64,000 nt of DNA from the human T2T-CHM13v2.0 reference genome, Homo sapiens (GCF_009914755.1 NC_060933.1), one strand, 5' to 3'; shown: positions 8,389 to 24,424, counted from the stretch's first letter. A program made the numbers and translations. Notes: generated from the sequence alone by a model not told the origin.

Positions 8389-8414
8389 ATGGTTCAAGCA
8401 TCTGGGCACAGGCG
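8389..8414 (+). CDS. AQP7-like exon 2 coding part (MVQASGHRR); exon starts at 8364
   Basis: Acceptor cag 8361-8363, aaaacATGG at 8389, donor gtaagt at 8415; 26 coding nt. Confidence 0.88.
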
Positions 8415-8839
8415 GTAAGTACCCCACCTTCTTCTCACCCTCCAGCCCCCTGTCCTCCACCCAGCCCACTTCAGTGCCCTCCCTGCTCCATCCTCAGCCT
8501 CTCCCTTGGGGCAGCTGTCCCCCCTCGACCTCCTCCTCCCCACCCACCCACTCACCTCTGAGGTCCCAGAAGAAAAGCATCTTCCACCTGTTGCCTGGGC
8601 TGGGTCCTGGGGTGAGGGGAGGCTCAGAAATACTTGGATGAGGGTCAAGGCATGCAGGTGGCCTTCAACTCAACTGCACTCAGCACCTCTCACCCTCTCA
8701 GGCTCAGCTGTCTTTGGGGTGAAAAAGAGCCAGTCCTTGCAATGGCCAAGGCCCTGCCTATGTAGTCCTTGTTAGCTTTCTGGCCTCCCCACTCCAGCCC
8801 CCTGCTCTCCCTCCTCCAGCCACACTGAGTTTCTTTTCT

Positions 8840-9176
8840 GGTTTTTTTTTTTCTTTTTTTTTTTTTTTTTGAGATGGAATCCAGTTCTGTTGCCCAGGCT
8901 GGAGTGCAATGGCAAGATCTTGGTTCACTGCAACCTCCTTCTCCCGGGTTCAAGCGATTCTCTTGCCTCAGCCTCCTGAGTAGCTGGGATTACAGGATTA
9001 CAGGCACACACTACCATGCCCAGCTAATTAGTTTTTTTTTTTTTTTTTGTATTTTTAGTAGAAATGGGGTTTCGCCATGTTCGCCAGGCTGTTCTTGAAC
9101 TCCGGACCTCAGGTGATCCACCCGCCTCGGCCTCCCAAAAGGTTGGGATTACAGGTGTGAGCCACTGCACCTGGCC
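8840..9176 (-). mobile_element. AluS
   Basis: Reverse Alu dimer with T tail; flanking near-repeat cacactga.tttcttt; small internal duplication ggattacaggattacagg. Confidence 0.93.
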
Positions 9177-10056
9177 TCACACTGACTTTCTTTGCTTTCT
9201 TCAAACATGCTGAGAGTCCTCTGGTGACTATTCCCTCCATCTGAGAGGCTTTCTGCAGTTAACATACAGCCCACTCTCATCTCCTTCATGGCTTTGCTCC
9301 AAGGCCACCTTCTCAACAAGGATTACTCTGACTGCCCTATTTGAAATCACACCCCATCTCCAGCCCCTGCACTCCCAATTCCCCTCTCCTTGCTCTGTTT
9401 TTTCCCATAGGAGCTGGTACCTTCGCTTATACAAATGTACTTACTTATTACATTTCATTGCTGTCAGCTCCACGCAAGCAGGGATATTTGCCTGTTGTAC
9501 ACTTGGACGGAGAGAATGAATAGTGCCCCTCTGTTGACATCATTGCCTCTAGCCTACGTCTCTTTCCAGGGCTTTAGATCCTGTTTCTAGAGACCCACTG
9601 GTGTCTCACAGGCAACTCAGCTCCTAGATGGAAACAGCCTCCTCCGCCCCCCACAAGTCCACTCCTCCTGTGCTCTTGGCTCAGTCAGGGGTCCCCTTCT
9701 CTTCAGTTGCTCAAGCCAGAAGTCAAGGTCATGTCCTTGATACTTCCCTCTTCCCCATGCCTCACATCCAGTCACCAATCTCCTAAAATATCTAGAATGT
9801 GCACAGCTTCCACCATTCTTTCTACCACCACCCTACTCCCCCATGGCCATGTCAGGCCACCACCCGCCCATTCTTCAAAACTCCCTTCAGGCCTCACCTC
9901 CCATGCCTCCCCTGAGTTCCCCCAGTCCCAGGCTGCTTCTCTCTGGTGGTGTTGCCATTACCCATCTCTTCTATTAAACAGAGTGACCCAAGAGTGGAGA
10001 GTGGGTTTTGACTTTGTATCCCTGGTGCTTGACTCATAAGTAGGTGCTCAACAAAA

Positions 10057-10357
10057 ATTTTTTCTTTTTTTGAGATGGAGTCTTGTTCTGTTGCCCATGC
10101 TGGAGTGCAGTGGCATGATCTCGGCTCACTGCAACTTCTGCTTCTTGGGCTCAAGCGATTCTCACATCTCAGCCCCCACCCCAGCTGGGATTACAGGTGC
10201 CTGCCACCATGCCCAGCTAATTTTTTTTTTTATTTTTAGTGGAAATGGGGTTCTGCCATGTTGGCCAGGCTGGTCTTGAACTCCTGACCTCAAGTGATCC
10301 ACCTGCCTCGGCCTCCTGAAGTGTTGGGATTACAGGCATGAGTCACCATGCCTGGCC
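10057..10357 (-). mobile_element. Alu (AluS/J) inserted at the 3' end of an L2 remnant
   Basis: Reverse Alu dimer flanked by taggtgctcaacaaa / aacaaatgtttgttgaatgaa, an L2 3' end signature. Confidence 0.9.
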
Positions 10358-10529
10358 AACAAATGTTTGTTGAATGAAGAAATGTTGGCTAGCAGGTTGA
10401 ATTGTTGGCTCGTGGTTAGTTGGATAGTTTATGGTTGACTGGTTGATTAGATAATTCAATGAGTTAATAGCTGGTTAACAGGAGAATCAGTTAGTTGGTT
10501 TTTGATAGGTTAGTCAAAGGGTTAATAAG

Positions 10530-10859
10530 CCACCGGGCATGTTGGCTCATGCCTGAAATCCCTGCACCTTGGGAGGCTGAGGCTGGAGGATTGCTTGAGT
10601 CCAGGAGTTTGGGACCAGCTTGGGTAACATGGCAAAACCCCATCTCTACAAAAAATAGGAAAAAATAGCCGGTCATGGTGGCATGCTCCTGTAGTCCCAA
10701 CTACTTGGGAGGCTGAGGTGGGAGGATCACTTGAACCCTGGAAAGTCTAGGCTTCAGTGAGCTGTGACTGTGCCACTGCACTTCAGCCTGGGTGACAGAG
10801 TGAGACCCTGTCTCAAAAAAAAAAAAAAAAAAAAGAAAGAAAAAGAAAAAGAAAAGAAA
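10530..10859 (+). mobile_element. AluJ
   Basis: ggaggattgcttgagtccaggagttt...gtgagctgtgactgtgcc diagnostic positions; A/GAAA tail. Confidence 0.9.
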
Positions 10860-11539
10860 CAGGCATTAGTGAGTTGTTAGCTATTTAGTTCCTTGGTTAA
10901 CAGATTACTTAGGGGATCTGGTTGGCTGTCAGTTTCTTGCTTTGTAGGCTGGCTTTCTTGGGCCCCTCTTCTTAGTCTGTACCCTCTCCTTGAGCTCTCT
11001 CATCTATGCCCATGGCTCAGATGACCATCTGTGATTTGCTGTCCTCCAAATGTGTCTGTAAGTGAGACCACATGACCAGCTGCCTCCTCACTGGCCATCC
11101 CACCCAAGTGTCTAGCGGGCTCCTCACACTCAACATGTCCAGAAAGGGCCTCCTTGTCCATTCTTTCACAGCTTCTCTGCTGTGCCCCACGCTAGTCATT
11201 CCGCTGCCCTAGCCAGGACCTGAGGGCATCGCTGAGCTGCCCCGCTCCCTTCCCTCTCTAACCGAACACCAAGCCTTTCAGCTTGACTGTGCTCTTGTGG
11301 CCATTGGCACTGCCATCTCTGTGGCTCAGGCTGCCACCACTTCTCCACCCATCTGTGGAGAAGCTGATGCTCACCCTGCCTCCACTCCACTTCCTCCATC
11401 CTGGCCTCCACAGGGGAGGCAGCTCTCCTGCTGAAACCCTCCACTTGGCCCATGGCCCTCTGGTAGAGTTCAGACTCCCTAATGTGGGCCATGAGGCCTT
11501 CTGCCACCTGGCCCTGGCCCCTCTCTGCCCATCTCATGC

Positions 11540-22457: not shown

Positions 22458-22884
22458 GTGAGTGAGCCCAGGCCCTGCCGGACCGGGCAAGACCAGGTGT
22501 CCCCAACAGGCTCTTTCCTGCCCGCCTCAGCCAGCTCCTTTGCCAGCACAGCCAGTGCCTCAGCCTGGCCACCGGGCGGGAGGAAGTCTCCTCTGAACCC
22601 CGTGCCTATGACGTGTCTGCCCCAGATTCTTCCTGGCCCCCCCGACCTACCATTTTCACTGGCTGGGTCATCTTAGGCAAGCCATCGCCTCTGTGTTCCT
22701 CAGTTTCCTTAAGAGTGAAACGAAGATGGTGGCCCCTGCCTCACGGGGTGGTTGTGAGGGCTCAAGGAGAGAACTCTGTCACGGAGCATGCTGTCATACA
22801 CGCTAGCCATCGTTGTTCTCATACTGTTTGTCACTGTTGTTTGTTCTGCTCTCGCTCCCTGACACACTTGCCTGCTGCCCGCAG

Positions 22885-23022
22885 GAGCCCACATGAACGC
22901 AGCTGTGAGCTTCACTAACTGTGCACTGGGCCGTGTGCCCTGGAGGAAGTTTCCAGTCTATGTGCTGGGGCAGTTCCTGGGCTCCTTCCTGGTGGCTGCC
23001 ACCATCTACAGTCTCTTCTACA
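22885..23022 (+). CDS. AQP7-like exon 5 (GAHMNAAVSFTNCALGRVPWRKFPVYVLGQFLGSFLVAATIYSLFY), first NPA-like motif NAA
   Basis: ccgcag| acceptor and |gtgagc donor; 138 nt; no stop. Confidence 0.9.
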
Positions 23023-23230
23023 GTGAGCATCCTGCCCGGGTGTCCGCCTCTGGCCTCAGCTGCCTCCTATGAAATATGGGCAGATTGGACCTCAGTGTCC
23101 TGATTTGTAAAAAATAGCTGGGAGAAAAAAGCCTTGGAGGTCTCCTACCCTCTAACCTATAACCTCATTTCCGGGACCCTGGTGGGGCTTAGTTGGGGAC
23201 AGGTTCGCGTGATAGTCTGTGTCTCCACAG

Positions 23231-23349
23231 CGGCCATTCTCCACTTTTCGGGTGGAGAGCTGATGGTGACCGGTCCCGTTGCTACAGCTGGCATTTTTGC
23301 CACCTACCTTCCTGATCACATGACATTGTGGCGGGGCTTCCTGAATGAG
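23231..23349 (+). CDS. AQP7-like exon 6 (TAILHFSGGELMVTGPVATAGIFATYLPDHMTLWRGFLNE)
   Basis: ccacag| acceptor and |gtcagt donor; 119 nt. Confidence 0.9.
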
Positions 23350-23559
23350 GTCAGTGGTCCAGGATGAGTACCCCTCCCCCTGCCCTCCACCCCTCAGGAC
23401 GGAGCCAGCAGGGAGTCCCTCCGGATAGACAGGACAAGAACTCTGGATGGAGACTGTACCAAGATGTGTCTCTGCTGGTGGGCTTGGGTCTGGGGCACTG
23501 CCGAGGTCCTGTGGCTTGGGGAGGGGCCCAGGTGAGCTTCCACAGCATCTGCTCCTCAG

Positions 23560-23780
23560 GAGTGGCTGACCGGGATGCTCCAGCTGTGTCTCTTCGCCAT
23601 CGTGGACCAGGAGAACAACCCAGCACTGCCAGGAACACACGCACTGGTGATAGGCATCCTCGTGGTCATCATCAGGGTGTACCATGGCATGAACACAGGA
23701 TATGCCATCAATCCGTCCCGGGACCTGCCCCCCCCCCGCATCTTCACCTTCATTGCTGGTTGGGGCAAACTGGTCTTCAG
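23560..23780 (+). CDS. AQP7-like exon 7 (EWLTGMLQLCLFAIVDQ...IIRVYHGMNTGYAINPSRDLPPPRIFTFIAGWGKLVF), second motif NPS
   Basis: cctcag| acceptor and |gtactg donor; 221 nt; in frame with ORF 23575..23811. Confidence 0.9.
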
Positions 23781-24138
23781 GTACTGCCCCTGCCCAGGCC
23801 CATTCCTTTGAGATTTTCTGTGGGGCCCCTGTGTGTTGAGGTGTGGGGGGTGATGTGAGGGGCAGCACAGGAGGGTCCTGCAGAGCCCCCAGGTGGCCTG
23901 GGGAGCAGGAGTGAGTCCCAACATTTCCCCAGGCCAGTAGAGATACAGATCCTGCACCTGCACTGAGTGTCAACCCTGTCCCTGAGTCGGGCTGAGGCTG
24001 ACCAGGGCCCCGGGTTGGGGGTGTTTCCTGGGTTAGCCTGAGGATGACTCCTCTGCTCAACCAGTCTTGGCCCGAGGTGGATGAGGGTGCTGTCCTGGGC
24101 ATCAGCCCCCTCAGCCGGCCTCTGCCTCTTGCCTGCAG

Positions 24139-24424
24139 CGATGGGGAGAACTTGTGGTGGGTGCCAGTGGTGGCACCACTTCTGGGTGCCTCTCTAGGTG
24201 GCATCATCTACCTGGTCTTCATTGGCTCCACCATCCCACGGGAGCCCCTGAAATTGGAGGACTCTGTGGCATATGAAGACCACGGGATAACTGTATTGCC
24301 CAAGATGGGATCTCATGAACCCATGATCTCTCCCCTTACCCTCATCTCCGTGAGCCCTGCCAACAGATCTTCAGTCCACCCTGCCCCACCCTTACATGAA
24401 TCCATGGCCCTAGAGCACTTCTAA
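24139..24424 (+). CDS. AQP7-like exon 8 coding part (SDGENLWWVPVVAPLLGASLGG...ESMALEHF*)
   Basis: ctgcag| acceptor; TAA at 24422-24424; 286 nt; the C-terminus matches AQP7. Confidence 0.9.

What the first reader, a model, noticed from the sequence alone, without database searches (positions are those of the whole stretch)
8389..24424. The AQP7 'pseudogene' copy has a fully open spliced ORF of 347 aa
Seen: coding exon lengths 26+130+124+138+119+221+286 = 1044 nt = 347 codons plus TAA. There is no internal stop, every intron is GT-AG, the ATG has a good Kozak context (aaaacATGG) and AATAAA follows the stop. Known (recalled): AQP7 is 342 aa with NAA/NPS motifs and has segmental-duplicate paralogs that are mostly annotated as pseudogenes (AQP7P1-type, AQP7B). 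Both length changes here (+4 aa, +1 aa) keep the frame. Inference: this copy may be a translatable, lineage-specific aquaglyceroporin. An open ORF in a young duplicate can also persist by chance, and some paralogs may already be annotated as putative proteins.
Basis: partly seen in the sequence, partly recalled or inferred. Interest (0 to 1): 0.8.

Follow-up and report, generated by a model that had tools for sequence, protein, structure and literature searches.

The report
AQP7P1 frame restored by poly-C slippage
This copy of the human glycerol-channel gene AQP7 really does have an unbroken 347-codon reading frame, but probably only because a run of C's that broke the frame in its closest sister copies later gained two more C's, so it looks like a lucky young pseudogene, not a proven new gene.

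Summary
Seven coding exons (8389-24424, +) join to 1044 nt, which is 347 codons plus TAA. All introns are GT-AG, and the Kozak context and AATAAA are as described. Every exon aligns colinearly with solved human AQP7, and the pore-defining residues are unchanged.

CHM13 holds 7 AQP7-type copies, and 3 are open: the parent (342 aa), the chr2 copy (346 aa) and this one. The four other chr9 copies are frameshifted at one poly-C run in exon 6. That run is 7 C in the parent, 8 bases in the broken copies and 10 C here.

An 11-kb ML tree nests this copy inside the frameshifted clade, sister to a broken copy that differs at 3.4 per 1000. The simplest history is therefore that a +2 C slip re-opened a broken frame.

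Other evidence gives no sign of selection:
- dN/dS against AQP7 is 0.63, against 0.48-0.62 for the broken copies.
- Coding divergence is no lower than intronic divergence.
- 24 of 25 substitutions are shared with broken paralogs.
- The only curated transcript skips exons 3-5 and retains intron 6, giving 135 aa.

Population data on the C-run length are the missing test.

The parts
6960..7268 (+). 5' untranslated first exon of AQP7P1 (from the supplied RefSeq table). It carries two short out-of-frame upstream ATGs.
   Evidence: Supplied annotation. One search finds the uATGs at transcript positions 37 and 249, giving uORFs of 21 and 4 aa. One search shows the 1 kb upstream (5930-6960) is 96% identical to the AQP7 parent locus, so the promoter region lies inside the duplicated unit.
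8389..8414 (+). Coding exon 1 (26 nt), with the ATG at 8389 in a strong Kozak context.
   Evidence: Identical in 6 of 7 copies; the parent differs by 1 synonymous base.
14631..14760 (+). Coding exon 2 (130 nt). It holds a 12-nt in-frame insertion (about 14693-14704) that adds 4 residues to the cytoplasmic N-terminus.
   Evidence: aligns to AQP7 residues 10-48 with a 4-residue gap. The insertion is shared by all six duplicates, including the chr2 copy.
22334..22457 (+). Coding exon 3 (124 nt), containing ar/R residue Phe (AQP7 F74).
   Evidence: (aligns to AQP7 49-89).
22885..23022 (+). Coding exon 4 (138 nt). It holds the NAA motif at 22896-22904 and, at 22993, the only amino-acid change unique to this copy (AQP7 A126 to V).
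   Evidence: AQP7 91-135; Pfam MIP, 29.1 bits against a cut-off of 25. The donor reads GTGAGCAT here and GTGAGTGT in the parent.
23231..23349 (+). Coding exon 5 (119 nt), encoding loop C with Q145 changed to E.
   Evidence: (AQP7 137-175).
23560..23780 (+). Coding exon 6 (221 nt), holding the NPS motif at 23710-23718, ar/R residues Tyr and Arg, and the poly-C run.
   Evidence: AQP7 177-247 with a one-residue gap; Pfam MIP, 34.3 bits.
23728..23737 (+). Poly-C run of 10 C, the position that decides whether the frame is open. The parent has 7 C. Four chr9 paralogs have 8 bases here (8 C, or 7 C plus G) and are frameshifted. The chr2 copy has 6 C plus A.
   Evidence: Over the 3.86 kb that spans exons 3-7, these two bases are the only indel difference from the sister copy.
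24139..24424 (+). Coding exon 7 (286 nt), encoding TM6 and the cytoplasmic C-terminal tail, with TAA at 24422-24424.
   Evidence: AQP7 249-342. It includes the tryptic peptide at 24305-24367, which is unique to this copy.
24457..24462 (+). AATAAA, 33 nt after the stop.
   Evidence: The annotated transcript instead ends at 26247, after an ATTAAA at 26227.

Best explanation
This is AQP7P1, one of five young chr9 segmental-duplicate copies of the aquaglyceroporin gene AQP7. The common ancestor of the five copies acquired a +1 frameshift, taking a poly-C run in exon 6 from 7 to 8 C. In this copy alone, after it split from its sister at chr9:79.9 Mb, the run gained two more C (10 C in total). Because the second slip hit the same run, the original frame is restored exactly. 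The only trace in the protein is one extra proline after the NPS half-helix.

The 347-codon frame is therefore real in this assembly. On this reading it is a by-product of homopolymer instability in a decaying, still transcribed duplicate, not a frame kept open by selection.

Shown: the open frame, the C-run lengths, the tree, the dN/dS values, and that the transcript model lacks the ORF. Inferred: the order of events (8 C, then 10 C), the neutrality of the change, and that no functional channel is made.
For: - Open and broken copies: 3 of 7 copies in the assembly are open. The four broken ones all break at this run, with exon 6 at 219 nt and the first stop at codon 298. Two of them also carry a TGA at codon 29.
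- Tree: the ML tree on 11,046 columns is (((window, 79.9M), (42.8M, 40.5M)), 44.7M), chr2, parent. Every internal node has 100% bootstrap support.
- Closest relative: the window copy is closest to the 79.9M copy in each of the three separately fetched segments (2.9, 2.6 and 4.7 differences per 1000).
- Parsimony: with 8 C ancestral, the history needs 2 length changes. If this copy was never broken, at least 4 are needed.
- dN/dS: the window copy against AQP7 gives 0.63 (13.5 S, 26.5 N). The four broken copies against AQP7 give 0.48-0.62. The excess of synonymous changes is not significant (binomial p = 0.16).
- Divergence: coding divergence is 41/1029, against 309/9757 in noncoding sequence (Fisher p = 0.16, coding the higher).
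- Changes after the frameshift: the stem of the four youngest copies carries 5 N and 0 S.
- Shared substitutions: 24 of 25 amino-acid substitutions against AQP7 also occur in broken paralogs.
- Linker length: the extra residue lies in a segment whose length does not vary in solved aquaglyceroporins. Of 14 PDB sequences matched (AQP7, AQP3, AQP10, GlpF, PfAQP), 13 are exactly one residue shorter, 1 is two shorter, and none has the window's length.
- Transcript: RefSeq NR_002817.2, laid on the window, skips exons 3-5 and retains intron 6. From the AQP7 ATG it gives 135 aa.
Against: - No disabling lesion: there is no stop and no frameshift, all splice sites are canonical and almost identical to the parent's, and the Kozak context is strong.
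- Pore residues: ar/R F74, Y223 and R229, the NAA and NPS motifs, and 12 named pore-lining residues are all unchanged (residue names from PMC10873552, passages).
- Promoter and RNA: the duplicated unit includes at least 1 kb upstream of the first exon. AQP7P1 RNA is reported as adipocyte-specific alongside AQP7 (PMC11537416, passage) and as a cell-cluster marker by in situ hybridization in the eye (PMC7293718, passages). Probes and reads may not separate paralogs that are 98-99.7% identical.
- dN/dS of 0.63 is below 1, and the counts are too small to exclude weak constraint.
- Precedent: the chr2 paralog with the same 12-nt insertion is named as a protein-coding gene, AQP7B (PMC9825485).
- Gene conversion between copies could have spread the 8-C state, which would weaken the parsimony argument.
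- One curated transcript does not exclude full-length isoforms.
Confidence: 0.62

Rival explanations
1. AQP7P1 is a working human-lineage aquaglyceroporin gene. The open frame is maintained, or was rescued and then favoured, by selection. Adipocytes and other cells make a 347-aa channel whose N-terminus and loop E differ slightly from AQP7.
For: The frame is open and the splice sites are canonical. All tested pore residues are intact. The promoter region is duplicated. RNA is reported in adipocytes and eye cells. Fortna et al. 2004 judged at least four of seven AQP7 copies 'potentially functional' and raised human-lineage selection (PMC449870, passages). AQP7B is annotated as protein-coding.
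Against: The copy is nested among frameshifted sisters. Its dN/dS matches that of the broken copies. Coding divergence is not below intronic divergence. It carries non-conservative changes next to loop E (G214R, S216Y, L217H), plus W253L and Y266S, all shared with broken copies. It has an extra residue in a linker whose length is invariant. The curated transcript lacks exons 3-5. My paper searches found no report of such a protein.
Confidence: 0.1
2. The lineage of this copy was never broken. It kept the 7-C run until a recent in-frame +3 expansion. The 8-base state of the four other chr9 copies arose independently or spread among them by gene conversion.
For: Homopolymer runs change length recurrently (recalled general knowledge). 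Some coding columns conflict with the tree (cds 113, 262, 760, 912 and 969), which suggests conversion or recurrent CpG change among these copies.
Against: This history needs at least 4 length changes against 2 on a tree where every internal node has 100% support. The sister copy, only 3.4 per 1000 away, has 8 C. No conversion tract is visible: the window copy is closest to the same sister in all three segments.
Confidence: 0.1
3. The 10-C call is not representative. It is either a residual consensus error at a homopolymer inside a 99.7%-identical duplication, or a private or rare allele of the CHM13 haplotype. In that case the locus is frameshifted in most people.
For: Openness depends wholly on the length of one 10-base homopolymer. 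Runs of this length are among the most mutable and most error-prone sites (recalled general knowledge). RefSeq still curates the gene as a transcribed pseudogene (supplied annotation).
Against: Nothing in the window points to an error. Over 3.86 kb the sister copies align without any other indel. No read data or other human assemblies were available, so this could not be tested.
Confidence: 0.15

Closest known systems
Human AQP7 (aquaglyceroporin; solved structures 6QZI, 6KXW, 6N1G, 8AMW)
   Same: The seven coding exons have the same structure, and every exon aligns colinearly with AQP7. 317 of 342 aligned residues are identical. The NAA and NPS motifs, ar/R residues F74, Y223 and R229, and 12 pore-lining residues are identical. 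The upstream 1 kb is 96% identical.
   Different: There are 25 substitutions. Four residues are added in the N-terminus and one proline after the NPS half-helix. Loop-C contact Q145 becomes E. The copy lies at chr9:77.6 Mb beside the heterochromatin block, not at 9p13.
AQP7B (chr2 copy; AQP7L1 of Yilmaz et al. 2020)
   Same: It is also an AQP7 segmental duplicate with the same 12-nt exon-2 insertion and an open frame (346 aa in CHM13). HGNC lists it as a protein-coding gene added by annotation groups and 'not yet studied elsewhere' (PMC9825485, passage).
   Different: It is the outgroup to the five chr9 copies and never carried the +1 C (6 C plus A, the same length as the parent). Its exon-4 donor is GC, not GT. 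It differs from the window copy by 22 nonsynonymous and 14 synonymous changes. Yilmaz et al. call it a pseudogene.
AQP7P1-P5 pseudogene family (AQP7L2-derived, amplified along human chr9)
   Same: The window copy is annotated as AQP7P1. [quoted passage not shown]
   Different: It is the only one of the five whose coding frame is intact in this assembly. I did not work out which of the other four loci bears which AQP7P number.

Membership tests
Major intrinsic protein / aquaporin family (Pfam PF00230) | Significant match to the MIP profile | tested here: met
   Only single exons could be scanned. 2 of 6 exon pieces pass the curated cut-off on their own: exon 4 at 29.1 bits and exon 6 at 34.3 bits, against a cut-off of 25. 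The other 4 short pieces gave no hit at E <= 0.01. All 6 match solved AQP7.
Major intrinsic protein / aquaporin family (Pfam PF00230) | [quoted passage not shown] | tested here: met
   NAA lies at 22896-22904 and NPS at 23710-23718. F74, Y223 and R229 are unchanged. Residue names come from PMC10873552 (passages).
Major intrinsic protein / aquaporin family (Pfam PF00230) | Six transmembrane helices plus two half-helices, forming a tetramer | not tested
   The whole spliced protein could not be handed to the folding tools, which take contiguous translations only. The extra proline sits in a linker that is one residue shorter in 13 of 14 matched solved aquaglyceroporins and two shorter in the other.
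Major intrinsic protein / aquaporin family (Pfam PF00230) | Water or glycerol permeability | not testable with these tools
   Needs an oocyte, yeast or proteoliposome assay.
AQP7 segmental-duplicate family (AQP7L2 / AQP7P1-P5) | Unprocessed copy with AQP7 exon-intron structure, the shared 12-nt exon-2 insertion, and placement in the chr9 clade | tested here: met
Pseudogene in the strict sense (coding capacity destroyed) | At least one disabling lesion: a nonsense codon, a frameshift, or a lost start or splice site | tested here: not met
   None is present in this assembly. The ancestral +1 C lesion is inferred to have been compensated. The 'transcribed pseudogene' label rests on curation and on a transcript that lacks the ORF.
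Protein-coding gene under purifying selection | dN/dS clearly below 1 and below that of non-functional paralogs; coding divergence below neutral divergence | tested here: not met
   dN/dS is 0.63 here and 0.48-0.62 for the broken copies. The binomial test gives p = 0.16. Coding divergence is 39.8 per 1000, against 31.7 per 1000 in noncoding sequence. Counts are small, so weak constraint is not excluded.
Protein-coding gene under purifying selection | A full-length mRNA and a detected protein | not testable with these tools
   The only annotated transcript gives 135 aa. No RNA-seq or proteome data were available. The papers I saw report RNA only.

The most novel reading that the evidence does not exclude
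AQP7P1 is a resurrected gene. A frameshift that had silenced the chr9 AQP7 duplicates was undone in this one copy by a second slip in the same poly-C run, within roughly the last few million years. That would give some or all humans a third full-length aquaglyceroporin of the AQP7 type, beside AQP7 and AQP7B. Its pore would be intact, its N-terminus and loop E altered, and its promoter adipocyte-active. Because a 10-C run is unstable, the gene could switch between on and off among living people.
Probability: 0.08. Interest if true: 0.6.

Novelty: new member of a known kind. Interest (0 to 1): 0.3.

Why it matters
AQP7 is the main glycerol exit channel of fat cells. Its human-lineage copy-number gain has been cited since 2004 as a possible adaptation (PMC449870). 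If this copy made a channel, human glycerol handling would involve an unrecognised and possibly polymorphic paralog. Expression and association studies that treat AQP7P1 as non-coding would then need another look.

As it stands, the value is mostly cautionary. An intact frame in a T2T assembly can hang on the length of a single homopolymer. Comparing all paralogs shows at once that the frame was most likely re-opened by chance. The case is also a clean example of exact frame restoration by a second slip at the site of the first.

Tried and rejected
I used per-exon references instead.
- Polarising the 18 coding differences that separate AQP7 from all six duplicates (12 N, 6 S): not possible without a non-human outgroup, and none was available.
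- Paper searches that led nowhere:
  - 'AQP7 + lineage-specific + copy number + endurance' found 1 irrelevant abstract book.
  - 'AQP7 + CHM13' found 1 irrelevant cattle review.
  - 'AQP7 + endurance running' found 5 papers (4 listed), none on the duplicates judging by the listing.
  - The TOGA2 preprint mentions AQP7B only as a renamed symbol.
- Rfam: 0 matches in the window at gathering score.
- Reading the 351-aa antisense open frame (23152-24207, minus strand) as a gene: rejected. It has no Pfam match, the region is 60% G+C, and the frame's length merely tracks the same poly-C indel across copies.
- Splice-site damage as the cause of exon 3-5 skipping in the curated transcript: not supported. 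Only the exon-4 donor differs from the parent, at +6 and +7.

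
Full report
**1. The observation**

The window is human chr9 (T2T-CHM13) and the feature is the annotated transcribed pseudogene AQP7P1.
- The coding exons are 8389-8414, 14631-14760, 22334-22457, 22885-23022, 23231-23349, 23560-23780 and 24139-24424.
- Their lengths are 26, 130, 124, 138, 119, 221 and 286 nt, 1044 nt in all.
- This translates to 347 residues followed by TAA, with no internal stop. 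All six introns begin with GT and end with AG.
- The ATG has A at -3 and G at +4.
- AATAAA lies at 24457.

**2. What the product would be**

Each exon, translated on its own, aligns colinearly with solved human aquaporin-7: residues 10-48, 49-89, 91-135, 137-175, 177-247 and 249-342. Exons 4 and 6 alone pass the Pfam MIP cut-off.

Against the AQP7 gene of the same assembly:
- 317 of 342 aligned residues are identical.
- Four residues are inserted in the cytoplasmic N-terminus, from a 12-nt insertion.
- One proline is inserted just after the NPS half-helix.

The residues named in the AQP7 structure papers are conserved. These are ar/R F74, Y223 and R229; N94 and N226 of the NAA and NPS motifs; and pore-lining V78, V82, A91, H92, N101, R106, L182, Q183, L186, F187, I206 and V210 (PMC10873552, passages). 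All are unchanged. One of three loop-C contacts, Q145, is changed to E (PMC9898259, passages).

**3. The paralogs decide the reading**

Searching the window's own assembly with three probes (exon 1, exon 2, exons 6-7) found the same 7 loci each time:
- the window copy;
- chr9 at 79.9, 42.8, 40.5 and 44.7 Mb;
- chr2 at 95.1 Mb;
- chr9 at 33.4 Mb, which is AQP7 itself.

I projected the window's exon boundaries onto alignments of these loci. Three of the 7 copies have an open frame: AQP7 (342 aa), the chr2 copy (346 aa) and the window copy (347 aa). The other four have an exon 6 of 219 nt and run into a stop at codon 298. Two of those four also carry TGA at codon 29.

The cause is a single poly-C run (window 23728-23737). 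It is 7 C in AQP7 and 8 C in three chr9 copies. The fourth chr9 copy has 7 C plus G, the same length. The chr2 copy has 6 C plus A, the parental length. The window copy has 10 C. The window's frame is therefore open only because its run is three bases longer than the parent's, not one.

**4. Order of events**

An ML tree on 11,046 aligned columns, mostly intron and flank, gives (((window, 79.9M), (42.8M, 40.5M)), 44.7M), chr2, parent. Every internal node has 100% bootstrap support.
- The window copy differs from its sister at 3.4 per 1000 sites and from AQP7 at 32 per 1000.
- It is closest to the same sister in all three separately fetched segments.
- Across the 3.86 kb spanning exons 3-7, the two extra C are the only indel between them.

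With 8 C ancestral to the five chr9 copies, two length changes explain the data: +1, then +2 in the window copy. If the window lineage was never broken, at least four changes are needed. I therefore infer that the frame was broken and later restored.

This is parsimony, not proof. Several coding columns conflict with the tree, so gene conversion among copies is possible.

From a recalled human mutation rate of about 0.5 x 10^-9 per site per year, 0.34% pairwise divergence puts the split from the sister at a few million years. That is an estimate, not a tool result.

**5. Is there a signature of selection?**

- dN/dS: by Nei-Gojobori counting, the window copy against AQP7 gives 13.5 synonymous and 26.5 nonsynonymous differences, dN/dS 0.63. 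The four demonstrably broken copies give 0.48-0.62 against AQP7, so the ratio says nothing in favour of this ORF. The excess of synonymous changes is not significant (p = 0.16).
- Divergence: coding divergence (41/1029) is not below noncoding divergence (309/9757).
- Changes placed on branches:
  - the stem of the five chr9 copies has 4 N and 4 S;
  - the stem of the four youngest copies, after the shared frameshift, has 5 N and 0 S;
  - the window's own branch has 1 N (A126V) and the +CC.
- Shared substitutions: 24 of the 25 substitutions against AQP7 also occur in broken copies. They include a non-conservative cluster just before loop E (G214R, S216Y, L217H), plus W253L and Y266S.
- Chance survival: a simulation shows that 35-59% of AQP7 coding sequences hit by 20-40 random substitutions keep no premature stop. 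Freedom from nonsense codons is unremarkable.

**6. The extra proline**

The segment from the end of TM5 through the NPS half-helix to the start of TM6 is 40 residues in the window product. Across the 14 matched PDB sequences (AQP7, AQP3, AQP10, E. coli GlpF and PfAQP), the aligned span is:
- exactly one residue shorter in 13;
- two residues shorter in 1;
- equal in none.

In the five alignments printed, the gap falls in the proline stretch. A length kept from bacteria to humans suggests, but does not show, that the insertion is not harmless.

**7. Transcripts and protein**

The duplicated unit reaches at least 1 kb upstream of the first exon, at 96% identity to AQP7. It ends near window 27,325. 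Beyond that point the duplicates share DNA related to chr14. A copied promoter fits the published RNA data:
- adipocytes 'uniquely expressed' AQP7, AQP7P1 and AQP7P3 (PMC11537416, passage);
- an adipose exercise array lists AQP7P1 (PMC13740967, table row);
- an eye single-cell study used AQP7P1 as an in situ marker (PMC7293718, passages).

None of these separates paralogs that are up to 99.7% identical.

The single curated transcript, laid on the window, joins exon 2 directly to exon 6 and retains intron 6. From the AQP7 ATG it encodes 135 aa.

**8. What is known**

- Fortna et al. 2004 reported the human-lineage gain of AQP7 copies and judged at least four of seven 'potentially functional' (PMC449870, passages).
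- Finn et al. 2014 list AQP7P1-P4 as pseudogenes (PMC4245216, table footnote).
- Yilmaz et al. [quoted passage not shown] My tree agrees with this.
- HGNC lists AQP7B as a protein-coding gene added by annotators and not yet studied (PMC9825485, passage).

I found no paper stating that AQP7P1 has an intact frame or describing the poly-C compensation.
- The searches were AQP7P1 (34 papers, 25 listed, passages read in 5), AQP7B (10 papers), AQP7P2-5 and 'aquaporin-7-like' (22 papers), AQP7 + human-specific + segmental duplication (2 papers) and AQP7 + CHM13 (1 paper).
- Subscription journals and bioRxiv supplements were not searchable. Supplementary Figure S4 of PMC7408487 is a PDF I could not see, and it may show lesions of the pseudogenes.

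**9. Verdict**

The open frame is real in this assembly. The copy passes the sequence tests for an aquaglyceroporin and fails the strict sequence test for a pseudogene.

The comparative evidence points to a decaying duplicate whose frame was re-opened by a second slip in an unstable homopolymer. There is no sign of selection and no transcript or peptide support.

The most useful missing fact is the length of this C-run in other human haplotypes and in the CHM13 reads.

The peptide encoded at 24305-24367 is the usable one.

Noticed in passing
window 23152-24207, minus strand: A 351-aa stop-free frame runs antisense across AQP7P1 exons 5-7 and their introns. It is 344 aa in the AQP7 parent, 350 aa in the chr2 copy and 267-271 aa in the four frameshifted copies. 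It has no Pfam match and the region is 60% G+C. It is probably a composition effect.
   Followed up: partly
L006 (chr2:95.1 Mb copy, AQP7B), exon 4 donor: The chr2 copy has an open 346-aa frame, but its exon-4 donor is GC (CAG|GCAAGT) where all other copies have GT. A GC donor can still work, but it may weaken splicing of a gene that is named as protein-coding.
   Followed up: no
L011 and L010 (chr9:42.8 Mb and 40.5 Mb copies), codon 29: These two sister copies share a TGG to TGA nonsense change at codon 29, in addition to the poly-C frameshift.
   Followed up: yes
window about 27100-28600: Homology to the AQP7 parent locus stops near window 27,325. The next stretch is shared by the six duplicates and matches chr14:22.06 Mb at 94%. 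The duplicated block is therefore a mosaic of AQP7 DNA and chr14-derived DNA.
   Followed up: partly
window 37478-38635 (minus strand) and 35027-35602 (minus strand): These are open frames of 385 aa and 191 aa with Pfam RVT_1 reverse-transcriptase matches (E 2.4e-48 and 1.3e-14). The longer one lies inside the long masked repeat 37007-39675 and the shorter one overlaps masked repeat 34959-35417. They are most likely LINE-type retrotransposon remnants.
   Followed up: partly
window 6960-26247 (RefSeq NR_002817.2 laid on the window): The curated transcript carries two short upstream ORFs (21 and 4 aa). From the AQP7 ATG it has a 135-aa frame that joins the N-terminus directly to the TM5/loop-E exon and then reads 10 codons into retained intron 6.
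   Followed up: yes
window 22334-24424 (coding columns cds 113, 262, 760, 912 and 969): Several coding positions show states that conflict with the well-supported copy tree. Position 113 is a three-state CpG site (Ala, Val or Glu). This hints at recurrent CpG mutation or small gene-conversion tracts among the chr9 copies.
   Followed up: no
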